A stretch of DNA of 42,489 bases from a bacterium (GCA_037127795.1 JBAXXQ010000001.1:471198-513686), one strand, 5' to 3'. Shown: positions 1,502 through 39,641, counted from the first letter of the stretch. A program made the numbers and translations. The notes: a model not told the origin generated them from the letters alone.

Positions 1502-1831
1502 TTAACCTATACGTAAAAAGAAAAGGAAGCCTATTAATAAAAAAAGAAGAAATCCTGAAATTATTACTGATAAGCTTATTAAACAAGCAAATAATGTTTT
1601 AATATTTGTTTTTAATTTAATAATTTTATAAAAAAAATAAAAACTAATTACTGGTACTATTACTAAAATAGTTAACCATATCAAAGATATAATTATTGAA
1701 TCTGCATTTTGATTGAAAAAATTTTTAGATATTAAAAACCAACTACCATAACATATTGGCCACCATATTAGATATACCACTCCTATAAATAATACTTTTT
1801 TCCACCATGTTGTAATTTTATTTTGCTCCAT
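1502..1831 (-). CDS. Small 3-TM membrane protein, tandem paralogue 5
   Basis: MEQNKITTWWKK N-terminus and three hydrophobic segments; homologous to neighbours. Confidence 0.85.
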   Translation of the reverse strand: MEQNKITTWWKKVLFIGVVYLIWWPICYGSWFLISKNFFNQNADSIIISLIWLTILVIVPVISFYFFYKIIKLKTNIKTLFACLISLSVIISGFLLFLLIGFLFFLRIG

Positions 1832-1901
1832 ATTATTTTAAAACTAACTTATTTCTTGTGACCTATTCATATTTTTATCTTAAGGTGTATTATAAGCTAC
1901 T

Positions 1902-2201
1902 TTACATATAGAAAAAAGAACCTAGCTCAATAAAAAGAAATAATAAAAAGAAAACTGTAATAAAATTTAAAATAAAAAGTTTTTTTAAATTTATGTTAGT
2001 TTTTTTATTTAAATAAAAAGGTAGATAATAAGCAGATCCGACTGGTAAAATAACTAAATAAAAAATCCAATAAAATAGCAGTAACCAATTTGGACTTTTT
2101 CCACTTAATAAATTAAAAGGTGATAAAAAAGTACTCAAGTAAAAAATTACGAATAATAGTAAGTAAATTTTAATTATTTCTAAAATCTTATTTTTTTTCA
2201 T
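1902..2201 (-). CDS. Small 3-TM membrane protein, divergent tandem paralogue 4
   Basis: MKKNKI start, same size and hydrophobicity pattern, conserved Pro in TM2 (ILPVGS); lacks TTWWKK. Confidence 0.75.
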   Translation of the reverse strand: MKKNKILEIIKIYLLLFVIFYLSTFLSPFNLLSGKSPNWLLLFYWIFYLVILPVGSAYYLPFYLNKKTNINLKKLFILNFITVFFLLFLFIELGSFFYM

Positions 2202-2206
2202 ATATT

Positions 2207-2530
2207 TTAACCAATCTCTGGATGCATTTGAGATAATCCTATTAAAAGTACACCTATTAACCCCAAAATTACAATAAGAGTTATTAATGTATAAAAAACT
2301 CTTTGATTTAAGTCATAAATCTTAGTAATTTTTCCACCAATCCAAAAAGCTGATATAGGACTAATTAAAATAAGTATTCCTGAAAGTATATTTAAAAAAG
2401 AATTATTAACTCCTTCTGGTTTAATCGACTGAAAAGTAAAAATACCAAAACAAATAATCCACCAAAAAATATAAATAATTAAAATAAGTAATACTTTTTT
2501 CCACCATGTTGTAATTTTATTTTGCTCCAT
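2207..2530 (-). CDS. Small 3-TM membrane protein, tandem paralogue 3
   Basis: MEQNKITTWWKK from ATG 2530 (ORF track starts at 2536); three TMs. Confidence 0.85.
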   Translation of the reverse strand: MEQNKITTWWKKVLLILIIYIFWWIICFGIFTFQSIKPEGVNNSFLNILSGILILISPISAFWIGGKITKIYDLNQRVFYTLITLIVILGLIGVLLIGLSQMHPEIG

Positions 2531-2538
2531 ATTCACTA

Positions 2539-2871
2539 TTAATAACCACTAAAGATTATAAAAATGATAGATAGGATATTAAACATAACACCTAAAAAAA
2601 TGATAAAAGAAATAATCTTATAAAAAAGTTGCTCTTTTATAAAAATCATATCTATTATTTTTTTTCCAATATAAAAACCCAAAAATGGAACAATTACAGT
2701 CGCATAAAAAATAATAATGCCTGCTACTACATGAGAATCACTGTCTGGTTTTTTAGAAAAAAAATCTTGTAAAAAGAAAAGTAATCCCCCATAAAAAATC
2801 AACCACCAAGCAATATACACCCCTCCTATAAGTAATATCTTTTTCCACCAAGTTGTAATTTTATTTTTCAT
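2539..2871 (-). CDS. Small 3-TM membrane protein, tandem paralogue 2
   Basis: MKNKITTWWKK N-terminus; three TMs. Confidence 0.85.
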   Translation of the reverse strand: MKNKITTWWKKILLIGGVYIAWWLIFYGGLLFFLQDFFSKKPDSDSHVVAGIIIFYATVIVPFLGFYIGKKIIDMIFIKEQLFYKIISFIIFLGVMFNILSIIFIIFSGY

Positions 2872-2888
2872 AATTACTATATAATTTA

Positions 2889-3212
2889 TTATACTATTTT
2901 AAAAGAAGATAAACCAACTAAAACATAGAATAACCACAAAGAGCATATTAAGTACAAAAAATGTGTAAAATAAAGTAATTTTATCTCAATTTTTGTAATT
3001 TTACTTATTTTATATGGAATTAAAAAACTTAATACAGGAATAATTCCAAAAAAATAAACAGGTGCACTATTAGATATAGTATCTGATAAATTATTTATAC
3101 TATTATTAAAATAAAAAACTGGTATTCCGTAAAAAATTACCCACCAAGTTGTATAGATACTGGTTATTAACAATGATTTTTTCCACCATGTTGTAATTTT
3201 ATTTTGCTCCAT
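2889..3212 (-). CDS. Small 3-TM membrane protein, tandem paralogue 1
   Basis: MEQNKITTWWKK N-terminus; starts 9 nt after the lipase-like gene stop. Confidence 0.85.
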   Translation of the reverse strand: MEQNKITTWWKKSLLITSIYTTWWVIFYGIPVFYFNNSINNLSDTISNSAPVYFFGIIPVLSFLIPYKISKITKIEIKLLYFTHFLYLICSLWLFYVLVGLSSFKIV

Positions 3213-3221
3213 ATATATAGT

Positions 3222-6200
3222 CTACAATATAATTAATTTTTTGATAAATTGTAATACTCGCACATACCAGGGATATTTTTTGGGTATTTCTGGTAGGGTA
3301 TTATTTTGTGAAAGTGTGTTTGTCGAAGTACTTTGTACAATCTTAGTATCTTGCACTTTTTTATGTTTTATATCACCGGTCTTTTTATCTCCTAGTACTA
3401 CCAATTTTTCTGGGATAGTACCTTGCTTTTCTTCTTTTGAAATAATAATTTCTGTTTTATCTTTTTCTACATCAATAGGTTTTATTCCACCATGGTTTTG
3501 TATTTGAGATATTATTGGAGTACTTAAAGAATCTTTTGCAAATACTGTACTATCCACCACCCCATCACCGTTTTCATCAAGCGCAACACTATAGCTAGTA
3601 TTTTGCGCACTTATATCCATATGTGCCTTCATAGACAAACTATCTATAGGGAGCTTGGTAAAATATGCACTACTAGTAACAACATCTTGAGTATCTATCT
3701 TATGTATATACATATCGTATGTACCCATATGCTCTGCAGTATTTACTATTTTGTATTGAGGGCCATCTGGTAAATATGCGTATTTTTGATCTTCAATAAT
3801 ATTGTAGGTGACATTCGGTATGCTGTACTCAATACTACCATCAGGTAGTGGGCCAGTATGATTCCCCTTATCGTCATAAATCTGTAAAGTAACAGGACTA
3901 TGATTTTCTATTGAAGTCCCAGACTGTAAACAAATATCTGGACTACTAGAAAACGAATTGTTTGTATCTATACTTTTTCCAGAAAGAATATTTACTATCG
4001 CATTTCGTATTCCTTCTACAGAAGGAAGCTCTGCATGGCTTCCTATATTTGAATAAAAATGTTGACCTTGGTTTATAAAATTTGCACTCTTGAGAGGTAC
4101 TGTTTCATCTCCTTCTACATACCCAATACTAAATGCTTCAATATATGGGAAATATGCACCTTTAGTAATATTTATATTTTGTATTGTCTTTGTACTACAC
4201 CCAGCAAAATCATACACATGGGTATTTTTGTATATAGGGGTATTATCAACCATATTATGCAAGATATCTGCGTAATTAAACATATCAGCATTTCTTCCAG
4301 AATTGATCATAAGATTTTTTGTATCTTCAATATCTAAATTAGTAGTATTTAAACTTACATAACTACCAAATTGTGCGCTTGGTAAAAGCTCATAGATAGA
4401 TGGCATATTTTGAGAAATTGATTTTATTCTTGTTTGACTCAAAATATTAATACCTAGTCCACCTATACCTAAATTATCTCCATACATAAGTGCCTTAAAT
4501 GCTTTTGGTGCACCAAGATGTGGTGTACCTACAAAAAATAAATTATCTATGTTTTGGTCCCCATATTCTGCAATATAGCGTTTTGTAATAAGTCCGCCCA
4601 TACTATGCGCAATAATATCTATACTATCATATCCAGTATCTTGCATTACTTGATCTATTTTTTGTTTCAATTTATCTGCACTTGTTTTACTATCAAAACG
4701 CCAATCGTATGGAAATACGAATAAGTCGGTATTTTCTACATACCCATCTTTATTTTTCAAATCTGCTATTAGGTAATCAAAAGTATGTGTAAATGCTGCA
4801 GATCTAATAATATCCCCTGTTACTATATGGTAACCAGGATCTTCTGTACCATCATATTTTAATGATAAAGGATTCAAAAAATGATCAAATAAATTAGTAA
4901 AAAGTTTAAACAAGCTAGGCCAAATTTCTTCATTATTATCATACGCTTTTAGAAGTTGTGTCCCAGAAATTCCTGGAATAATAATCACCGGCACACGAGA
5001 ATTTTTGGGATCGTGCCGCAAGAATGGCGCAAAATTCACTACACTTGGATCAGGCACAAAGCTATCTATGCTTGGACCATCTTTTGTCCCCCACCAGTTT
5101 TTTGAAATATCTAAACCAGGCCCTATATACAATACATTGAGATTATTTGTATCATGAATACTATTATTTTTTATTTCAGAATCTGCTGATTGATCAAAAA
5201 TACGCAATGCAAATGCTGTCGTATTATATATTTCACTATCGTGCATTTGTATAGAGACAGTACTACCTTGCTGTCCATCAGTCTCTATTCCTTGTCCGAC
5301 ATCATGTATTTTTACATGTGATACAACAAGGCTCGAGCCTGGATATATAGTAATCCCAGCATTTCCATTTTTTATTTCTGTATTGGTAATCTGTGCAGTA
5401 GAAGAATTACCAGACATGATTCCCATCCAGCTTGCTTTGTCTATATCGCTATCTTGGATATGTAACGTGCTCGCATCAAAACCACTAATACCAGTGTTTG
5501 CATTTTTTATATGGACTGTATTGAGTGAAAGATTTGTATTTGAAATACTTATTGCAGTATTAGTCGTAATATCAATACTGGTATTAGTGAAAGTAGCGAT
5601 AGTATCCGCAAGTACAATTGCATTATTGGTACTACTTACTACAGACGAGTCAATCAAATCTATATGTGATTTTGAAAATACATATATCCCAATATCGCAA
5701 TCAAGAATACTAATATTATCAATATGAAGCGTACTTGTATCTCCCAAAACCCCTGTATTTGCTCCAGATATGGCTGTGTGAGATATAGTCGCTGTACTAT
5801 CATACAGCGATACACCGCCACTATTCATATCTATATAACTAAATACCGCATCGCCACCATATACAACTATTTCATATTTATTCCCATCAAATTGCACATG
5901 ACTATCTGGATTACCTTGTATATGAATACTTCCCAAAACAAGCATATCTGCACCATCTGCAAAATATAATATTGCGCCCAGATCTATAGCTAAATCAGTA
6001 CCTTCTGACACAGTCGATCTTCCATATAGACTATAGCTCCCATCTCCACCAGTAAGTGTATTACTATCAGCAATAGTACTACCTTCTACTATTTTCCAAC
6101 CTTGTATACCTGTTTGTACAAAACTAGTACCAGTATGCACAAAACGCGTAGCGAAGGTGATTTGTGCAGGAATTTTTACAGAAGTAAAAGTAGTTTGCTG

Positions 6201-6638
6201 CACGGCGATATCTGCATCATCGGCAGATATCGCCGTGCCCGTATGCGCAAAATCTGTATACAAAAAATCTCCACTTGCTACAGTAGAGAATATAAAACCA
6301 CCCCATGCTGTATCAGGTGTTTGTGTATCAAACACAATATGATTATCTGTTGTGCCTTGTGCCACTATCGCACCATCGACCTGTATATGTGCATTTGGTA
6401 CAAATAACACCTGCACACCAGAATCTATAGTGAGCGTCGCAGTATCACCAATATCAATATTATTTTTGACAATATATGGGCTCGCATCGAGTGTCCAATG
6501 TGTATCTTGCGTAATATCACTAGAGATAGATGTATCTGCGAAACTTTTTGAGGGAGACAAAAACACGCACAAGATAATTGTGCAACATGCAAACAAAAAC
6601 CTTTTTTGTTTACGCACCATTAATCCAAGTATATACAA
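3222..6638 (-). CDS. Secreted protein: parallel beta-helix repeats + LCAT/PGAP1-like alpha/beta hydrolase (phospholipase/acyltransferase-like)
   Basis: Signal peptide (likely start ATG 6620, ...SKSFA|D), long beta-helix-like repeats, then PVIIIPGISGT, FPYDWR, IIAHSMGG (GxSxG-type nucleophile elbow), GTPHLGAP, GDETVP (Asp), SHAELP (His); amphipathic C-terminal tail. Confidence 0.85.
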   Translation of the reverse strand: MYILGLMVRKQKRFLFACCTIILCVFLSPSKSFADTSISSDITQDTHWTLDASPYIVKNNIDIGDTATLTIDSGVQVLFVPNAHIQVDGAIVAQGTTDNHIVFDTQTPDTAWGGFIFSTVASGDFLYTDFAHTGTAISADDADIAVQQTTFTSVKIPAQITFATRFVHTGTSFVQTGIQGWKIVEGSTIADSNTLTGGDGSYSLYGRSTVSEGTDLAIDLGAILYFADGADMLVLGSIHIQGNPDSHVQFDGNKYEIVVYGGDAVFSYIDMNSGGVSLYDSTATISHTAISGANTGVLGDTSTLHIDNISILDCDIGIYVFSKSHIDLIDSSVVSSTNNAIVLADTIATFTNTSIDITTNTAISISNTNLSLNTVHIKNANTGISGFDASTLHIQDSDIDKASWMGIMSGNSSTAQITNTEIKNGNAGITIYPGSSLVVSHVKIHDVGQGIETDGQQGSTVSIQMHDSEIYNTTAFALRIFDQSADSEIKNNSIHDTNNLNVLYIGPGLDISKNWWGTKDGPSIDSFVPDPSVVNFAPFLRHDPKNSRVPVIIIPGISGTQLLKAYDNNEEIWPSLFKLFTNLFDHFLNPLSLKYDGTEDPGYHIVTGDIIRSAAFTHTFDYLIADLKNKDGYVENTDLFVFPYDWRFDSKTSADKLKQKIDQVMQDTGYDSIDIIAHSMGGLITKRYIAEYGDQNIDNLFFVGTPHLGAPKAFKALMYGDNLGIGGLGINILSQTRIKSISQNMPSIYELLPSAQFGSYVSLNTTNLDIEDTKNLMINSGRNADMFNYADILHNMVDNTPIYKNTHVYDFAGCSTKTIQNINITKGAYFPYIEAFSIGYVEGDETVPLKSANFINQGQHFYSNIGSHAELPSVEGIRNAIVNILSGKSIDTNNSFSSSPDICLQSGTSIENHSPVTLQIYDDKGNHTGPLPDGSIEYSIPNVTYNIIEDQKYAYLPDGPQYKIVNTAEHMGTYDMYIHKIDTQDVVTSSAYFTKLPIDSLSMKAHMDISAQNTSYSVALDENGDGVVDSTVFAKDSLSTPIISQIQNHGGIKPIDVEKDKTEIIISKEEKQGTIPEKLVVLGDKKTGDIKHKKVQDTKIVQSTSTNTLSQNNTLPEIPKKYPWYVRVLQFIKKLIIL

Positions 6639-17008: not shown

Positions 17009-17335
17009 TTACGCATACTCATGAACAACATGAATATGTTTCTCCAAAACATGTGAGGTTATTTTATCAAAAACAACTTCACAGGGATATTCCTCATCGG
17101 AATCAAATTTGGCAATATCTTTTTCTATATCAAAATAGAAACAAAGCCTTCCTTCATTACTACCTGCCTGGTATGCATCCAAATTCCCAGGCACATACCC
17201 TTTAATAGTATGACCTTCTGTGTCTTCTGGGAACGGAAGTACTCCGGAAAGATTGCTCAATCTTGTAAACCAATCCTTATATTCACCACCTATATCTCTT
17301 CCTCGTGGAGAGGGTGGCTGATGATGACTGTCCAT
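17009..17335 (-). CDS. Hypothetical protein
   Basis: 108 aa ORF ending at the shared terminator. Confidence 0.65.
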   Translation of the reverse strand: MDSHHQPPSPRGRDIGGEYKDWFTRLSNLSGVLPFPEDTEGHTIKGYVPGNLDAYQAGSNEGRLCFYFDIEKDIAKFDSDEEYPCEVVFDKITSHVLEKHIHVVHEYA

Positions 17336-34672: not shown

Positions 34673-34748
34673 ATATAACTACATAATGCCACAAAAAGGC
34701 AAATAAAAAAAGCTCAATATCAAAATACTGAACTTTTTGTTCAAAAAA

Positions 34749-34916
34749 CTATTTTTTTATTATTTTCAACACCGAAACCCCCATAGCCATTACTAATACT
34801 TTATCAAATAAATCTACGAGGCTTGATTTAAAAACAATTCCAAAATAATTTTCATATAAACTTGTAACTATTACAAGAACTATCCAAAAAATTACCCATA
34901 AAGTTTTCTTATTCAT
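34749..34916 (-). CDS. Small 2-TM membrane protein (55 aa)
   Basis: Start ATG 34916 (MNKKTLWVIFW...), downstream of promoter TTGACT-17-TACTTT (34963..34935). Confidence 0.6.
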   Translation of the reverse strand: MNKKTLWVIFWIVLVIVTSLYENYFGIVFKSSLVDLFDKVLVMAMGVSVLKIIKK

Positions 34917-34958
34917 TTCTAATGATTTTTTATAAAAGTAACATATATGTATATAAAA

Positions 34959-35037
34959 GTCAAGTACCACAATAGCACAATATATAAAATAACAAATCCC
35001 CGACACAATTGCCGGAGATTACATAGTACGAATGAAA
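34959..35037. repeat. Cassette junction copy A (terminator hairpin + conserved spacer + next -35)
   Basis: 65/79 identical to 35452..35530 by manual alignment. Confidence 0.9.
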
Positions 35038-35038
35038 A

Positions 35039-35401
35039 TTATTCTGTTTTAAAACTTAAACCTCTTTCTTCTAAGCAGATTTGAAGATCTCTTAAATTCT
35101 TTTTTCCAACACCTGTAATTCCAGAAATTTGCTCTTTTTTAAAAAGGCAAACATCTTCTATATTATTTACCCCTATAGACTTGAGCGCATTAAACATTGT
35201 CACACTTAACGCATCAGAAGGAAGATTTTGAAGAGGTGTTGGAACAAGAAAATTGAAACATATTTTTTTCTTGTTAGAAAATAGATTTATGGCATCTAAA
35301 TTATCTTCTACATCAATTCCTTTTGTTTTTAAAAAAGAAACAATATCTTTTGTTTCAAGAGTAACCTCTACTCTTGAAACTGTTTTTGCTTTAATTTTCA
35401 T
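35039..35401 (-). CDS. Stand-alone RNA polymerase alpha-CTD-like protein
   Basis: C-terminal half LSVTMFNALKSIGV...GVGKKNLRDLQICLEERGLSF matches the alpha-CTD pattern LTVRSANCLK...LGKKSLTEI...LASRGLSL. Own promoter TTGACG-17-TATTAT. Confidence 0.8.
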   Translation of the reverse strand: MKIKAKTVSRVEVTLETKDIVSFLKTKGIDVEDNLDAINLFSNKKKICFNFLVPTPLQNLPSDALSVTMFNALKSIGVNNIEDVCLFKKEQISGITGVGKKNLRDLQICLEERGLSFKTE

Positions 35402-35451
35402 CTTTATTTAATTTTTGATTTGTATATATAATATAACTTTTATTACAATTC

Positions 35452-35530
35452 GTCAAGTACCATATCTACGCAATATATAAAATAACAAACCCCCGACACA
35501 ATTGCCGGGGGCTACATAACATAAATGAAA
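35452..35530. repeat. Cassette junction copy B
   Basis: Homologous to 34959..35037; its first 27 bp are identical to 37884..37910. Confidence 0.9.
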
Positions 35531-37792
35531 TCACCTTTTTAAATACTCTCCTTTTTTTCTACCAAAAACCTCATTGAATGTTTTTGAATAAACTCTTTGG
35601 AAGTCAACAGTATAAGGCCAAACAATAAATTTATTATCTTTTCTTGCTTTATCATATTCTTTTCCAGAAAAACTTTTTCCTTTGAAATGATCAAGTACTT
35701 TTTGATATAAATCTTTTTCTGATAAATATTCAATTTTGACGAGCTTTCCCTTATTGAAAAAGAATTCAGCAAAAGTTTTTGAATAAAGCCTTGAGAACAT
35801 ATCTTCATAAGGCCAAGAATAAAAATTATTTTCTTTCCTTACTTTTTCATACTGCGAACCGGTAAATTTCTCGTCTTTAAGATAAATTGCGACTTCTTTT
35901 CTAAGTTGCTCTTCTGATAGATAAGTAATCTGACGTTTTTGTTTTATACCAAAAAATATTTCCTTAAAATTTTTAGAGTAAGTATTATAGAGAAAACCAG
36001 AAGAAGGCCATCTAAAAAAAAATTTATCACGTTTTATTTTATCGTAATCTTTAATACTGAAACTTATTTTTCCTAAATGCCTAAAAACTTCTTTTTTAAG
36101 TTTTTTTTCTGATAAGAAGTTGTTAACCTTTCTTCCTGTAAAAAGTTCCCCAAATGTTTTTGAATAAACTCTTGGAAATTCAGTAGATCTTGCCCAAAAA
36201 ATAAAACTGTTATCTTTTTTTGCCTTATCATACTCTTTTTGTGTAAAAGATTTTCCGTTAAAATATTTACAAGTTTCTTTTTTAAGTTGTTCTTTAGATA
36301 AATAAGTTGTCTTATTATTTTTTTTCTTACCAAAGAATAATTCTTTAAAAGTTTTTGAATAAATTCTTGGAAATTCAGAATAATCAGGCCACTTATTAGA
36401 AAATAATAACTTTTTTACTTTCGTGTATTCACTTATAGTTAGTTTTTTTCCAATAAAATACCCCAGTACCTCTTTTTTAAACACTTCTTCACTAGACCAA
36501 ACCCTATATAAACGAGAATTCTTTTCTATCGCTTTCGCGATTTCGATCACCTCCAACTCTTCTGTGGAGAATTCAATATCGAATTCTTTTCCAGAAACAG
36601 TCAAAATAGATCTGTCTAGGACGCCAAGGTTTAGCTTAGAGCGAGTAATTTCAATAGATTGTGCAAGACTACTTACCATAACAAGCCTTTCAGCATTTGC
36701 TACAAAATCAAGCACTAAAGCAATTTTACCTTCTTGTAAACGCAAAACTCTTCCTAGTTGTTGGAAAAATACTCTTTTAGAATCAGTACAACGTAAGAAC
36801 ACTCCAATTTGCACATTAGGCACATCAATATCTTCGTTTAGCTTGTTCACCGAAACCAAAAATTGAATTTCGTTTTCGCGGAACTTTTTCATAAAAGTTT
36901 GATTGTGACCGCGTGATTTTTGGGAATGTATAACACCTGCACTTTTTCCATCAGCAATAATTTGATGATATACCCTATCTGCATGTATGATATTCTCGCA
37001 ATAAATTAATGTTTGCTTTGAAATATCAGTGCATGCATACGAATAAATTTCATCAAAAGTTTCTCTATCCAATGAGTCAATAAATAAATTTTCATTTATT
37101 TGCTTCATTGAAATATTTTTTCTTTCTGCAACAACATATTGAAACATTTGTTTCAATTGTTTTCTGTTTAAACCAGAAGACTTCACAAGATATTTCACTT
37201 GCGACATCCATCCGTTAATCATAGCTTCTTCAAAAGATATTTCATAGATAACTTTTTCAAAAATCTCTAGGATATCTTTTTCATCTTCCCTGTCAGGAGT
37301 TGCTGTCATGCCTATTTTAGGAGCATTGAAATAATCAATAACTTCTTTGTAGGTTACTGCTTGTCCGTGATGTGCTTCGTTTACGATAATAAATTTAAAA
37401 TGATCCTCGTTAAAGTAGTTGTACCATTTTTCATGGTGGTTGTTCATACTTTGATACGAGGCAAATACTATATCAGCTCGTTCAGGATCAGTATCTTTAT
37501 CATCGCCAAAAAAACTTGCGCAGATAATACGTTCGTCTGCAAAGATTTGTTCAAATTTTTCGCGCGCTTGGTCTAATCCCTCATTTTCATTGTAGAGATA
37601 TAGTCCTTTCATGTGATATATTTGAATACAATCCCTTGCGATAAACGCAGCCTCAGTACTTTTACCCGTACTGGTGGGCTGGATGATTAATCCATTTTCA
37701 CCAGCCAAGATATTCTCGATAGCAATATCAACAATAGGTTGCTGATATTCACGAGGTACTTTTGGCACTTCTTGAATTAGTAATTCTTTCAT
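35531..37792 (-). CDS. SF2 (DExH/ResIII-like) helicase with five C-terminal ~63 aa repeats
   Basis: QPTSTGKS, VNEAHH, GMTATPDRED, LNEDIDVP, QQLGRVLR; repeats YLSxxxLxKxV...Y.K.....WP....F.R.YSKTF.E.F.G. Promoter TTGACT-17-TATAAT at 37888..37860. Confidence 0.9.
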   Translation of the reverse strand: MKELLIQEVPKVPREYQQPIVDIAIENILAGENGLIIQPTSTGKSTEAAFIARDCIQIYHMKGLYLYNENEGLDQAREKFEQIFADERIICASFFGDDKDTDPERADIVFASYQSMNNHHEKWYNYFNEDHFKFIIVNEAHHGQAVTYKEVIDYFNAPKIGMTATPDREDEKDILEIFEKVIYEISFEEAMINGWMSQVKYLVKSSGLNRKQLKQMFQYVVAERKNISMKQINENLFIDSLDRETFDEIYSYACTDISKQTLIYCENIIHADRVYHQIIADGKSAGVIHSQKSRGHNQTFMKKFRENEIQFLVSVNKLNEDIDVPNVQIGVFLRCTDSKRVFFQQLGRVLRLQEGKIALVLDFVANAERLVMVSSLAQSIEITRSKLNLGVLDRSILTVSGKEFDIEFSTEELEVIEIAKAIEKNSRLYRVWSSEEVFKKEVLGYFIGKKLTISEYTKVKKLLFSNKWPDYSEFPRIYSKTFKELFFGKKKNNKTTYLSKEQLKKETCKYFNGKSFTQKEYDKAKKDNSFIFWARSTEFPRVYSKTFGELFTGRKVNNFLSEKKLKKEVFRHLGKISFSIKDYDKIKRDKFFFRWPSSGFLYNTYSKNFKEIFFGIKQKRQITYLSEEQLRKEVAIYLKDEKFTGSQYEKVRKENNFYSWPYEDMFSRLYSKTFAEFFFNKGKLVKIEYLSEKDLYQKVLDHFKGKSFSGKEYDKARKDNKFIVWPYTVDFQRVYSKTFNEVFGRKKGEYLKR

Positions 37793-37883
37793 TTTATTAT
37801 GTTTTGAAAGGACAAATAGGCAATATCGCCAATATTTTTAATATAATGTAATTTGTTATATTATATACATATTTTGCATAAAA

Positions 37884-37910
37884 GTCAAGTACCATATCTA
37901 CGCAATATAT
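37884..37910. repeat. Cassette junction copy C (27 bp perfect direct repeat)
   Basis: GTCAAGTACCATATCTACGCAATATAT, also at 35452..35478. Confidence 0.95.
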
Positions 37911-39530: not shown

Positions 39531-39562
39531 AAAAAATCCCCAGAGAAATCTGGGGATTTTTT
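39531..39562. terminator. Bidirectional terminator between tsf and tRNA-Thr
   Basis: AAAAAATCCCCAGA-GAAA-TCTGGGGATTTTTT. Confidence 0.92.
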
Positions 39563-39565
39563 AAT

Positions 39566-39641
39566 TGGAGCCGCTTCTCAGACTTGAACTGAGGACCTTC
39601 GCTTTACAAAAGCGTTGCTCTACCAACTGAGCTAAAGCGGC
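39566..39641 (-). tRNA. tRNA-Thr (TGT)
   Basis: 76 nt cloverleaf GCCGCTTTAGCTCAGTTGGTAGAGC...TTTGTAA...TTCAAGT...GCGGCTCCA with encoded CCA. Confidence 0.97.

What the first reader, a model, noticed from the sequence alone, without database searches (positions are those of the whole stretch)
35039..35401. Stand-alone alpha-CTD homologue lacking the UP-element Arg
Aligned by eye to E. coli alpha-CTD, N268 and G296-K297-K298 are kept, but R265 (critical for UP-element binding) is Thr and S299 is Asn. It is fused to an unrelated ~55 aa N-terminal segment instead of the alpha-NTD and has its own promoter in an accessory cassette. It could be a decoy that titrates alpha-CTD-contacting activators or phage factors, or an adaptor.
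Basis: partly seen in the sequence, partly recalled or inferred. Interest (0 to 1): 0.65.

Follow-up and report, generated by a model that had tools for sequence, protein, structure and literature searches.

The report
Strain-specific free-standing alpha-CTD-like protein
A small accessory gene of an uncultured ultra-small (Patescibacteria-type) bacterium encodes a detached copy of the DNA- and activator-docking tail domain of RNA polymerase; such detached copies are common but unstudied, and this one is a recent, strain-specific gain with no known function.

Summary
The ORF at 35039-35401 (- strand, 120 aa) has a C-terminal half (residues ~56-120) that is a genuine RNA polymerase alpha-CTD-type domain. 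It scores 30 bits against Pfam PF03118 (cut-off 23.8) and only 17.7 against generic HHH_5 (cut-off 27). Every PDB sequence hit, and the top 48 fold hits, are alpha subunits or alpha-CTDs. R265 is Thr68 and S299 is Asn102; N268 and G296-K297-K298 are kept. Residues 1-55 match nothing in 1.84 billion representative proteins.

The gene is accessory. A relative whose helicase is 90% identical runs helicase to proS directly. Here a 780-bp insert carries two mini-cassettes, the alpha-CTD gene and a 55-aa membrane ORF. Each is driven by a copy of the upstream helicase's promoter, and the helicase terminator is also copied once.

Free-standing or oddly fused alpha-CTD domains are abundant in other proteins: tandem repeats, fusions to sigma region 4, HNH repeats and SF2 helicases, and ~130-aa phage proteins. 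So this is a new, orphan member of a known but unstudied kind.

Function is inferred only. My best guess is a weak or non-specific nucleic-acid or partner-binding adaptor co-expressed with the helicase. The decoy idea is neither supported nor excluded.

The parts
35039..35401 (-). 120-aa ORF (stop codon included): an orphan N-terminal segment followed by an alpha-CTD-like domain
35042..35236 (-). Alpha-CTD-type helix-hairpin-helix domain, residues 56-120. T68 = R265, N71 = N268, G99-K100-K101 = G296-K297-K298, N102 = S299.
   Evidence: Pfam PF03118 scores 30 bits, above its cut-off. A custom HMM scores 73 bits. pLDDT is above 93. Fold hits are and the residue map.
35237..35401 (-). Orphan basic N-terminal segment, residues 1-55, pI 9.25. 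Two helices are predicted (17-26 and 31-43), and residues 2-12 have pLDDT below 50 (very low confidence).
35428..35456 (-). Sigma-70-type promoter of the alpha-CTD gene (TTGACG, 17-nt spacer, TATTAT)
   Evidence: 10 of 12 consensus positions matched
35452..35478 (-). 27-nt block ATATATTGCGTAGATATGGTACTTGAC, which ends in the -35 hexamer; copy B. It is identical to the block upstream of the helicase.
35488..35513 (-). Intrinsic terminator of the helicase gene. It is ancestral, because the relative has it too.
34995..35020 (-). Intrinsic terminator of the alpha-CTD gene, a copy of the helicase terminator
   Evidence: (repeat family D5: 79 nt, 82% identical)
34959..34985 (-). Third copy (C) of the 27-nt promoter block, upstream of the small membrane ORF
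34749..34916 (-). 55-aa hydrophobic ORF (MNKKTLWVIFWIV...; GRAVY hydrophobicity index 1.09) with no family hit; the second mini-cassette of the insert
34698..35477 (-). 780-bp window-specific segment. In the close relative L001 it is replaced by 51 unrelated bases.
35531..37792 (-). 753-aa SF2 helicase (ResIII and Helicase_C domains) with five C-terminal repeats of about 65 aa. It is the donor of the copied promoter and terminator.
37860..37910 (-). Helicase promoter (TTGACT, 17-nt spacer, TATAAT; 11 of 12 consensus positions) preceded by the original 27-nt block (37884-37910)

Best explanation
**What it is.** The gene encodes a small soluble protein that is not an RNA polymerase subunit. An orphan, basic N-terminal segment of about 55 aa is joined to one well-folded alpha-CTD-type helix-hairpin-helix domain.

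**How it arose.** It is a recent, strain-specific gain. A 780-bp insert behind an SF2 helicase gene holds two mini-cassettes. Each starts with a copy of the helicase's promoter, and the alpha-CTD cassette also ends in a copy of the helicase's terminator.

**How it probably works (inferred, not shown).**
- The copied promoter would make it co-expressed with the helicase.
- The retained hairpin residues G99-K100-K101 and N71, plus the basic N-terminus, would give weak or non-sequence-specific contact with the nucleic-acid backbone. The minor-groove Arg that reads UP elements is gone.
- It would thus act as a nucleic-acid or partner-binding adaptor. It would play in trans the part that alpha-CTD-like domains play in cis in fusion proteins such as ResIII-helicase + HA + sigma4 + 3 x alpha-CTD.
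For: **Identity of the domain (shown).**

**Not a subunit (shown).** There is no alpha-NTD, the protein is only 120 aa, and the gene lies between a helicase and proS.

**Recent gain (shown).**
- The relative has 92% DNA identity over the aligned block that holds the helicase gene, and 90% protein identity for the helicase.
- It has only 130 bp between the helicase gene and proS.
- GC content is 28% for this gene and 25% for the small ORF, against 34-42% for core neighbours.
- No full-length homologue exists among 5.8e9 clusters or 1.84e9 representatives.

**Real DNA, not an assembly artefact.** Contigs from another sample of the same study are identical over 283 nt. A pond metagenome from a different study matches over 230 nt with 4 differences.

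**Co-regulation (consensus level only).**
- The 27-nt block plus -35 hexamer is identical to the helicase's, and the -10 region is similar.
- In this 42-kb window the exact 10-nt core of the block (GGTACTTGAC) occurs only at these three genes.

**Link to helicases and repeat domains.**
- Among the 69 closest proteins, 2 fuse alpha-CTD repeats to ResIII/Helicase_C (e.g. P0006), and 5 fuse them to HNH_repeat.
- Homologues of the neighbouring helicase carry INT_rpt or HNH_repeat C-terminal repeats.

**DNA-contact residues.** N268, G296, K297 and K298 are kept; R265 and S299 are changed.
Against: **The helicase link is not conserved.**
- The closest relative lacks the gene.
- Three other helicase homologue loci have no alpha-CTD neighbour.
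- A terminator separates the two genes.
- Only 2 of 69 related proteins are helicase fusions, whereas 19 of 69 carry sigma region 4. That points to transcription rather than helicase work.

**No expression evidence.** A metatranscriptome of the source sample gave two small contigs on the helicase and none on this gene. It also gave none on rpsB, tsf or proS, so the result is inconclusive.

**Signs of weak constraint.**
- The two substitutions that could be read in the pond variant are both non-synonymous (A64T and R113K, by my own codon reading).
- The gene is an orphan, which fits weak constraint.

**Binding.** DNA or partner binding is inferred from residues only.
Confidence: 0.4

Rival explanations
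1. **Alpha-CTD mimic acting on transcription.** The free domain would bind proteins that normally dock on RNAP alpha-CTD, such as activators, sigma region 4, or phage factors that target alpha-CTD. Lacking R265, it would do so without competing for UP-element DNA. It would thereby titrate or redirect those proteins.
For: - The similarity is alpha-CTD-specific rather than generic HhH.
- 19 of the 69 closest proteins combine alpha-CTD-like domains with sigma-70 region 4, which suggests a transcription-related role for the wider group.
- Phage proteins of ~130 aa named 'RNA polymerase, alpha subunit, C-terminal' are the best viral fold matches.
- Loss of R265 fits a function that does not depend on DNA.
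Against: - Positions aligned with the E. coli 261 and 287 contact patches are not conserved: P61/S62/A64 for D258/D259/E261, and E90/Q91/I92/S93 for V287/E288/L289/L290. Those patches are lineage-specific, however.
- The proper comparison, with the organism's own RpoA, could not be made.
- No partner gene is conserved next to it, and no homologue exists to test co-occurrence.
- The closest relative lacks the gene.
Confidence: 0.2
2. **Trans-acting reader of the private promoter class.** The protein would bind the conserved 27-nt block just upstream of the -35 hexamer, where alpha-CTD normally sits. That block precedes the helicase, the protein's own gene and the small ORF, so the protein would activate or repress these three promoters (autoregulation).
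For: - Three copies of the block ATATATTG[C/T]G...GGTACTTGAC occur, and its exact 10-nt core is confined to these three genes in the window.
- Between this genome and the relative the block is 27/27 identical, while the -35/-10 spacer has 4 changes in 17.
- The block occupies the position of an UP element.
Against: - The relative keeps the identical block without having the gene, so the block does not depend on this protein.
- The residue most needed for sequence-dependent minor-groove binding is missing.
- The copies are explained most simply by duplication of a promoter.
Confidence: 0.1
3. **Young, effectively neutral gene or remnant.** A piece of a tandem alpha-CTD-repeat gene would have been captured between duplicated promoter and terminator modules. 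It would still be an open frame but would have no selected function.
For: - It forms a single-member cluster with an orphan N-terminus.
- It is strain-specific and has the lowest GC of the locus apart from the small ORF.
- Residues 18-30 (KDIVSFLKTKGID) faintly resemble the last helix plus the Gly-Leu-Ser turn that ends an alpha-CTD unit, as if the frame starts inside an upstream repeat. The score is only 1.3 bits, not significant; see also the alignment to P0193.
- Both readable substitutions in the pond variant are non-synonymous.
Against: - The 120-codon frame is intact, and its domain folds confidently.
- The domain keeps the family's near-invariant core residues L270, G296 and G311.
- The promoter and terminator are complete.
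- The sequence is retained at 98-100% identity in metagenomes from at least two studies.
Confidence: 0.25

Closest known systems
C-terminal domain of the bacterial RNA polymerase alpha subunit (RpoA residues ~250-329; Pfam PF03118; PDB 1LB2, 3K4G, 1Z3E, 1DOQ)
   Same: - The fold is the same: target-normalised TM-score 0.80-0.84 and rmsd 1.4-2.1 A.
- Sequence identity to solved alpha-CTD chains is 22-29% in the fold-search alignments.
- The Pfam score is above the curated cut-off.
- N268, G296, K297, K298 and the hydrophobic core (L262, L270, I275, I278, L300, L307, G311, L312) are kept.
   Different: - It is not attached to an alpha-NTD, so it cannot be an RNAP subunit by the known route.
- R265 is Thr, S299 is Asn and C269 is Ala.
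- Positions of the E. coli 261 and 287 determinants are not conserved.
- The gene is accessory and lies outside the ribosomal-protein/rpoA operon.
Non-RpoA proteins that carry alpha-CTD-like domains (unnamed and unstudied): tandem-repeat proteins (P0002, P0003, P0005), sigma70_r4 + alpha-CTD proteins (P0004, P0037), alpha-CTD + HTH + HNH_repeat (P0008, P0058), and ResIII helicase + HA + sigma4 + 3 x alpha-CTD (P0006)
   Same: - These give the best whole-database matches.
- A profile of their domains scores this one at 73 bits.
- The R265 position is variable in this group: Arg in 81 of 110.
   Different: - This protein has a single domain.
- It has no sigma4, HTH, HNH_repeat or helicase part in the same chain.
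- Its N-terminal 55 aa match none of them.
Small phage proteins annotated 'RNA polymerase, alpha subunit, C-terminal' or 'alpha subunit C-terminal domain-containing protein' (BFVD A0A6J5M7I6, A0A6J5QDR9, A0A6J5MNY7; Rhodococcus phage Finch A0A2P1JY10)
   Same: - The size is similar (111-139 aa).
- The layout is the same: a short N-terminal extension followed by one alpha-CTD fold.
   Different: - Sequence identity is only 16-24%, and the N-terminal parts align poorly (rmsd 9-15 A).
- There is no PHROG hit.
- Nothing phage-like lies in the immediate neighbourhood.
NCBIfam NF005841 / PRK07758, a 95-aa 'hypothetical protein' made essentially of an alpha-CTD-like domain
   Same: It is a stand-alone small protein whose C-terminal 55 residues align with residues 64-118 here.
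   Different: The score is 26.2 bits against a curated cut-off of 115, so this protein is not a member.

Membership tests
RNA polymerase alpha subunit (RpoA) | N-terminal dimerisation and assembly domain (Pfam PF01193 RNA_pol_L and PF01000 RNA_pol_A_bac) | tested here: not met
   No such hit at E up to 10. The protein is only 120 aa. RpoA equivalog models score 14-29 bits against cut-offs of 228-523.
RNA polymerase alpha subunit (RpoA) | Gene lies in or next to the rpsM-rpsK-rpsD-rpoA-rplQ cluster | tested here: not met
   The gene lies between an SF2 helicase and proS/mreBC, with rpsB-tsf on the other side.
Alpha-CTD domain family (Pfam PF03118) | Score at or above Pfam's gathering threshold | tested here: met
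   30.0 bits against 23.8, residues 65-112.
Alpha-CTD domain family (Pfam PF03118) | Alpha-CTD fold: four helices with two helix-hairpin-helix motifs | tested here: met
   The AlphaFold model has pLDDT 93-97. The top 48 Foldseek PDB hits are all alpha or alpha-CTD, with target-normalised TM-score 0.80-0.84.
Alpha-CTD as UP-element reader (E. coli '265 determinant') | R265, N268, C269, G296, K298 and S299 all present | tested here: not met
   T68, N71, A72, G99, K101 and N102. The key Arg and the Ser are replaced. The functional consequence is inferred from E. coli mutational work, cited from memory.
Alpha-CTD as docking site for sigma region 4 and activators (E. coli 261 and 287 determinants) | Acidic 258-261 patch; V287, E288, L289, G315, R317 | tested here: inconclusive
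   The aligned residues differ (P61, S62, A64; E90, Q91, I92; K118, E120).
Generic helix-hairpin-helix modules (Pfam HHH_5, PF14520) | Score at or above the gathering threshold, and better than the alpha-CTD model | tested here: not met
   17.7 bits against a cut-off of 27, and lower than PF03118.
NCBIfam NF005841 (PRK07758) stand-alone alpha-CTD-like protein | Score at or above the curated cut-off | tested here: not met
   26.2 bits against 115.
Sigma region 4 + alpha-CTD fusion proteins | Sigma70_r4 (PF04545) helix-turn-helix N-terminal to the alpha-CTD domain | tested here: not met
   No Sigma70_r4 or other HTH hit in residues 1-61 at E up to 10. The predicted helices 17-26 and 31-43 include an acidic second helix.
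Known anti-phage defence systems (PADLOC) and phage protein families (PHROGs) | A hit of the alpha-CTD protein, or a complete system made with its neighbours | tested here: not met
   No PADLOC or PHROG hit for the 120-aa or the 55-aa protein. The helicase matches only the helicase cores of mREase_IV and PbeA and of phrog_16.

The most novel reading that the evidence does not exclude
The three genes behind the copied 27-nt block would form a private promoter class. The R265-less alpha-CTD protein would be a detachable upstream-promoter module acting in trans at these promoters. It could sit where the polymerase's own alpha-CTD would sit, or replace it if this genome's RpoA has lost its CTD, as earlier notes of this scan report for some candidate-phyla bacteria. 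That would be a natural case of the alpha-CTD function supplied by a separate, mobile, strain-variable gene.
Probability: 0.06. Interest if true: 0.7.

Novelty: new member of a known kind. Interest (0 to 1): 0.3.

Why it matters
Detached alpha-CTD domains are widespread in uncultured bacteria and phages. Databases name them only by domain, and four full-text searches found no paper on them.

This case adds three things:
- A dated gain, present in one strain and absent in a 90%-identical relative.
- An unusually clear picture of how the gene was wired for expression, by copying the neighbour's promoter and terminator.
- A natural variant that lacks the Arg that makes alpha-CTD read DNA.

The protein is an orphan from an uncultured organism and nothing ties it to a phenotype. 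By itself it does not open a new question. Its value is as one data point for whoever characterises the family.

Tried and rejected
1. **N-terminus derived from the tail of alpha-NTD plus the linker (a truncated rpoA duplicate).**
   - HMMER stretched one alignment to C. difficile alpha (residues 16-118 against 213-311). The extension adds no score: 23.8 bits against 26.5 for the CTD alone.
   - Foldseek's long alignments to full-length alpha have rmsd 12-20 A.
   - Rejected.
2. **N-terminus as a degenerate second alpha-CTD repeat.**
   - BLASTP to the two-repeat protein P0193 covers 98% of the query at 25% identity.
   - A profile of 110 domains gives the N-terminus only 1.3 bits.
   - Kept only as a faint lead.
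3. **N-terminus as sigma region 4 or another HTH.** No Pfam signal.
4. **A second copy of the N-terminal segment in the window.** tblastn found 36% identity over 33 aa at 17096-17194 (nominal E 0.002 against this 42-kb window only). I judged it too short and weak to pursue and did not follow it up.
5. **Conserved helicase + alpha-CTD operon.** Four helicase homologue loci were checked, and none has the gene.
6. **Promoter block as a genome-wide or lineage-wide motif.**
   - The scan of GTDB genomes gave three chance hits in unrelated organisms and did not find this genome.
   - The fetched loci show the block only in the close relative.
7. **RNA family in the intergenic repeats.** Only one sub-threshold Rfam hit: rnk_pseudo, 24.9 bits against a cut-off of 55.
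8. **Expression.** Metatranscriptome contigs from the source samples gave nothing on the gene and almost nothing on the locus.
9. **Literature.** Four full-text searches found no paper on free-standing alpha-CTD proteins.

Full report
**1. The observation**

- **Pfam.** RNA_pol_A_CTD (PF03118) matches residues 65-112 at 30.0 bits, above the curated cut-off of 23.8. Generic HHH_5 reaches 17.7 bits, below its cut-off of 27.
- **NCBIfam.** RpoA equivalog models align only their last ~55 positions and fall far below their cut-offs. The stand-alone model PRK07758 scores 26 bits against 115.
- **PDB by sequence.** All 34 hits are RNAP alpha or isolated alpha-CTDs. The best is B. subtilis alpha-CTD, 1z3e_B, E 5.6e-5.
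- **Custom profile.** I built a profile from 110 alpha-CTD-like domains of non-RpoA proteins. It scores the C-terminal half at 73 bits.
- **Structure.** An AlphaFold model made with an alignment of 41 such domains has mean pLDDT 82.8, and 93-97 over residues ~61-120. The top 48 Foldseek PDB matches are all alpha subunits or alpha-CTDs. Against isolated alpha-CTD chains the target-normalised TM-score is 0.80-0.84 and rmsd is 1.4-2.1 A.

The similarity is therefore alpha-CTD-specific.

**2. Residues**

| E. coli position | Residue here | State |
|---|---|---|
| V264 | V67 | kept |
| R265 | T68 | changed |
| N268 | N71 | kept |
| C269 | A72 | changed |
| L270 | L73 | kept |
| K271 | K74 | kept |
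| N294 | G97 | changed |
| G296 | G99 | kept |
| K297 | K100 | kept |
| K298 | K101 | kept |
| S299 | N102 | changed |

- In the 110 related non-RpoA domains, R265 is kept in 81, N268 in 87, G296 in 100 and K298 in 64. Losing the Arg is a minority state but not unique. Thr there and Asn at 299 are both rare.
- From published E. coli work, cited from memory, R265 enters the minor groove and R265A abolishes UP-element binding. Canonical A-tract reading is therefore unlikely here, although the hairpin's backbone contacts remain possible.
- Positions aligned with the E. coli sigma and activator patches (258-261 and 287-290, 315, 317) differ. Those patches are lineage-specific, and the relevant comparison is with the organism's own RpoA.

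**3. The N-terminal half**

- Residues 1-55 hit nothing. There is no significant Pfam family.
- None of the 70 matches among 1.84 billion representative proteins covers them meaningfully.
- The word-indexed search of 5.8 billion clusters found only the protein itself, and its cluster has one member.
- The segment is basic, pI 9.25.
- The model shows very low confidence (pLDDT below 50) for residues 2-12 and two helices, 17-26 and 31-43, at pLDDT ~70-87.
- I tested and rejected homology to the alpha-NTD tail and to sigma region 4.
- A resemblance of KDIVSFLKTKGID to the last helix and Gly-Leu-Ser turn of an alpha-CTD unit is not significant: 1.3 bits.

**4. Context and origin**

Gene order on the - strand:

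1. A 753-aa SF2 helicase with ResIII and Helicase_C domains and five C-terminal repeats of about 65 aa.
2. The alpha-CTD gene.
3. A 55-aa hydrophobic ORF.
4. proS, mreB, mreC and PBP2.

rpsB and tsf diverge on the other side.

The helicase family is common in Patescibacteria (Nomurabacteria, Paceibacteria, Moraniibacteria). Its homologues carry INT_rpt, HNH_repeat or zinc-ribbon C-terminal parts.

A relative with a 90%-identical helicase (ENA scaffold, locus L001) is collinear with the window at 89-92% DNA identity. It has only 130 bp between the helicase gene and proS. Window 34698-35477 (780 bp) is replaced there by 51 unrelated bases.

The insert has a clear anatomy:

- It begins exactly after the helicase terminator's T-tract.
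- It opens with a copy of the helicase promoter. The 27-nt block ATATATTGCGTAGATATGGTACTTGAC is identical, and the -10 region is similar.
- Next come the alpha-CTD gene and a copy of the helicase terminator.
- Then come a third promoter copy and the small ORF.
- The 79-nt terminator-plus-promoter unit thus brackets the alpha-CTD gene as an 82%-identical direct repeat (family D5).

GC content is 28% for the alpha-CTD gene, 25% for the small ORF and 31% for the helicase, against 34-42% for core neighbours.

The cassette is real DNA. Contigs from a second sample of the same study are identical over 283 nt. Contigs from a pond metagenome of another study match over 230 nt with four differences. 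The two that could be read are A64T and R113K, by my own codon reading.

**5. Relatives of the domain**

- The best whole-database matches are not RpoA. They are proteins with 2-11 tandem alpha-CTD-like units and various fusions.
- Of the 69 closest proteins, 66 carry PF03118, 19 carry Sigma70_r4, 5 carry HNH_repeat, 4 carry HARE-HTH and 2 carry ResIII plus Helicase_C. Only one is a true RpoA.
- P0006 is a single chain of ResIII, Helicase_C, HA, Sigma70_r4 and 3 x alpha-CTD. Its helicase core is distantly related to the neighbour here, at 23% identity.
- In the viral structure library the best matches are phage proteins of ~130 aa annotated 'RNA polymerase, alpha subunit, C-terminal'.
- Free-standing alpha-CTD domains are therefore an existing, domain-annotated but uncharacterised kind. 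I found no paper on them.
- Earlier notes of this scan list many similar cases. I used them as leads only.

**6. Mechanism**

Shown:
- The fold and the residue pattern.
- The absence of any RNAP-assembly domain.
- The strain-specific gain.
- The duplicated promoter and terminator.

Inferred:
- The copied promoter gives co-expression with the helicase.
- The domain acts as a weak or non-specific nucleic-acid or partner-binding module.
- The protein supplies in trans what fused alpha-CTD-like domains supply in helicase and HNH-repeat fusion proteins.

Evidence against the helicase link:
- It is not conserved in four other helicase loci.
- A terminator separates the two genes.
- Sigma-4 fusions outnumber helicase fusions.

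Expression data are uninformative. Two metatranscriptome contigs lie on the helicase and none lies on this gene or on rpsB, tsf or proS.

**7. Limits**

I could not read the genome's own rpoA or count the repeats genome-wide.
- The GTDB contig scan did not contain this genome.

**8. Verdict**

This is a new, orphan member of a known but unstudied kind, of modest interest.

Noticed in passing
window 35531-36500 (- strand; helicase residues ~430-753): The SF2 helicase ends in five tandem ~65-aa repeats with the motif YLSEEQLKKE..F(T/S)xKEYDKxKKDNxFxxWP...FxRVYSKTFxELF. Pfam does not recognise them even at E 10, although homologues carry INT_rpt (PF14882) or HNH_repeat (PF18780) at that position.
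   Followed up: partly
window 34749-34916 (- strand): A 55-aa very hydrophobic ORF (GRAVY hydrophobicity index 1.09, probably two membrane helices) forms the second mini-cassette of the insert. It has its own promoter copy and no family hit. No clear terminator separates it from proS, so its promoter may also read into proS.
   Followed up: partly
window 39562-39568 versus L001 3098-4227: There is a second indel between the two strains. The relative carries a 366-aa PLP-dependent decarboxylase gene (Pfam Pyridoxal_deC) between the 85-aa ORF and tsf, and the window lacks it.
   Followed up: no
window 1502-3212 (- strand): Five tandem paralogous ORFs of 99-110 aa lie directly downstream of a 1138-aa beta-helix + LCAT/lipase-like protein (3222-6638). 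Four of them hold copies of the 124-nt repeat family D2. The three I scanned have no Pfam hit.
   Followed up: partly
window 8259-9176 (+ strand): An rve-type integrase/transposase with an N-terminal HTH lies near the tRNA-trailing element noted earlier at 9984-10207. This is a mobile-element gene in an otherwise core region.
   Followed up: no
window 35965-36153 and 37422-37600: In the metatranscriptome of the source sample, the only contigs that match this 6-kb stretch lie on the helicase gene and are identical to it. None lies on rpsB, tsf or proS. This hints that the helicase promoter is comparatively strong, or that the RNA library contains carried-over DNA.
   Followed up: no
L002 2980-6733 and L003 422-4175: In another Patescibacteria genome, the homologous helicase (910 aa) sits directly downstream of a phage-type integrase and a DUF3892 gene. 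This suggests that the helicase family itself travels on mobile elements.
   Followed up: no
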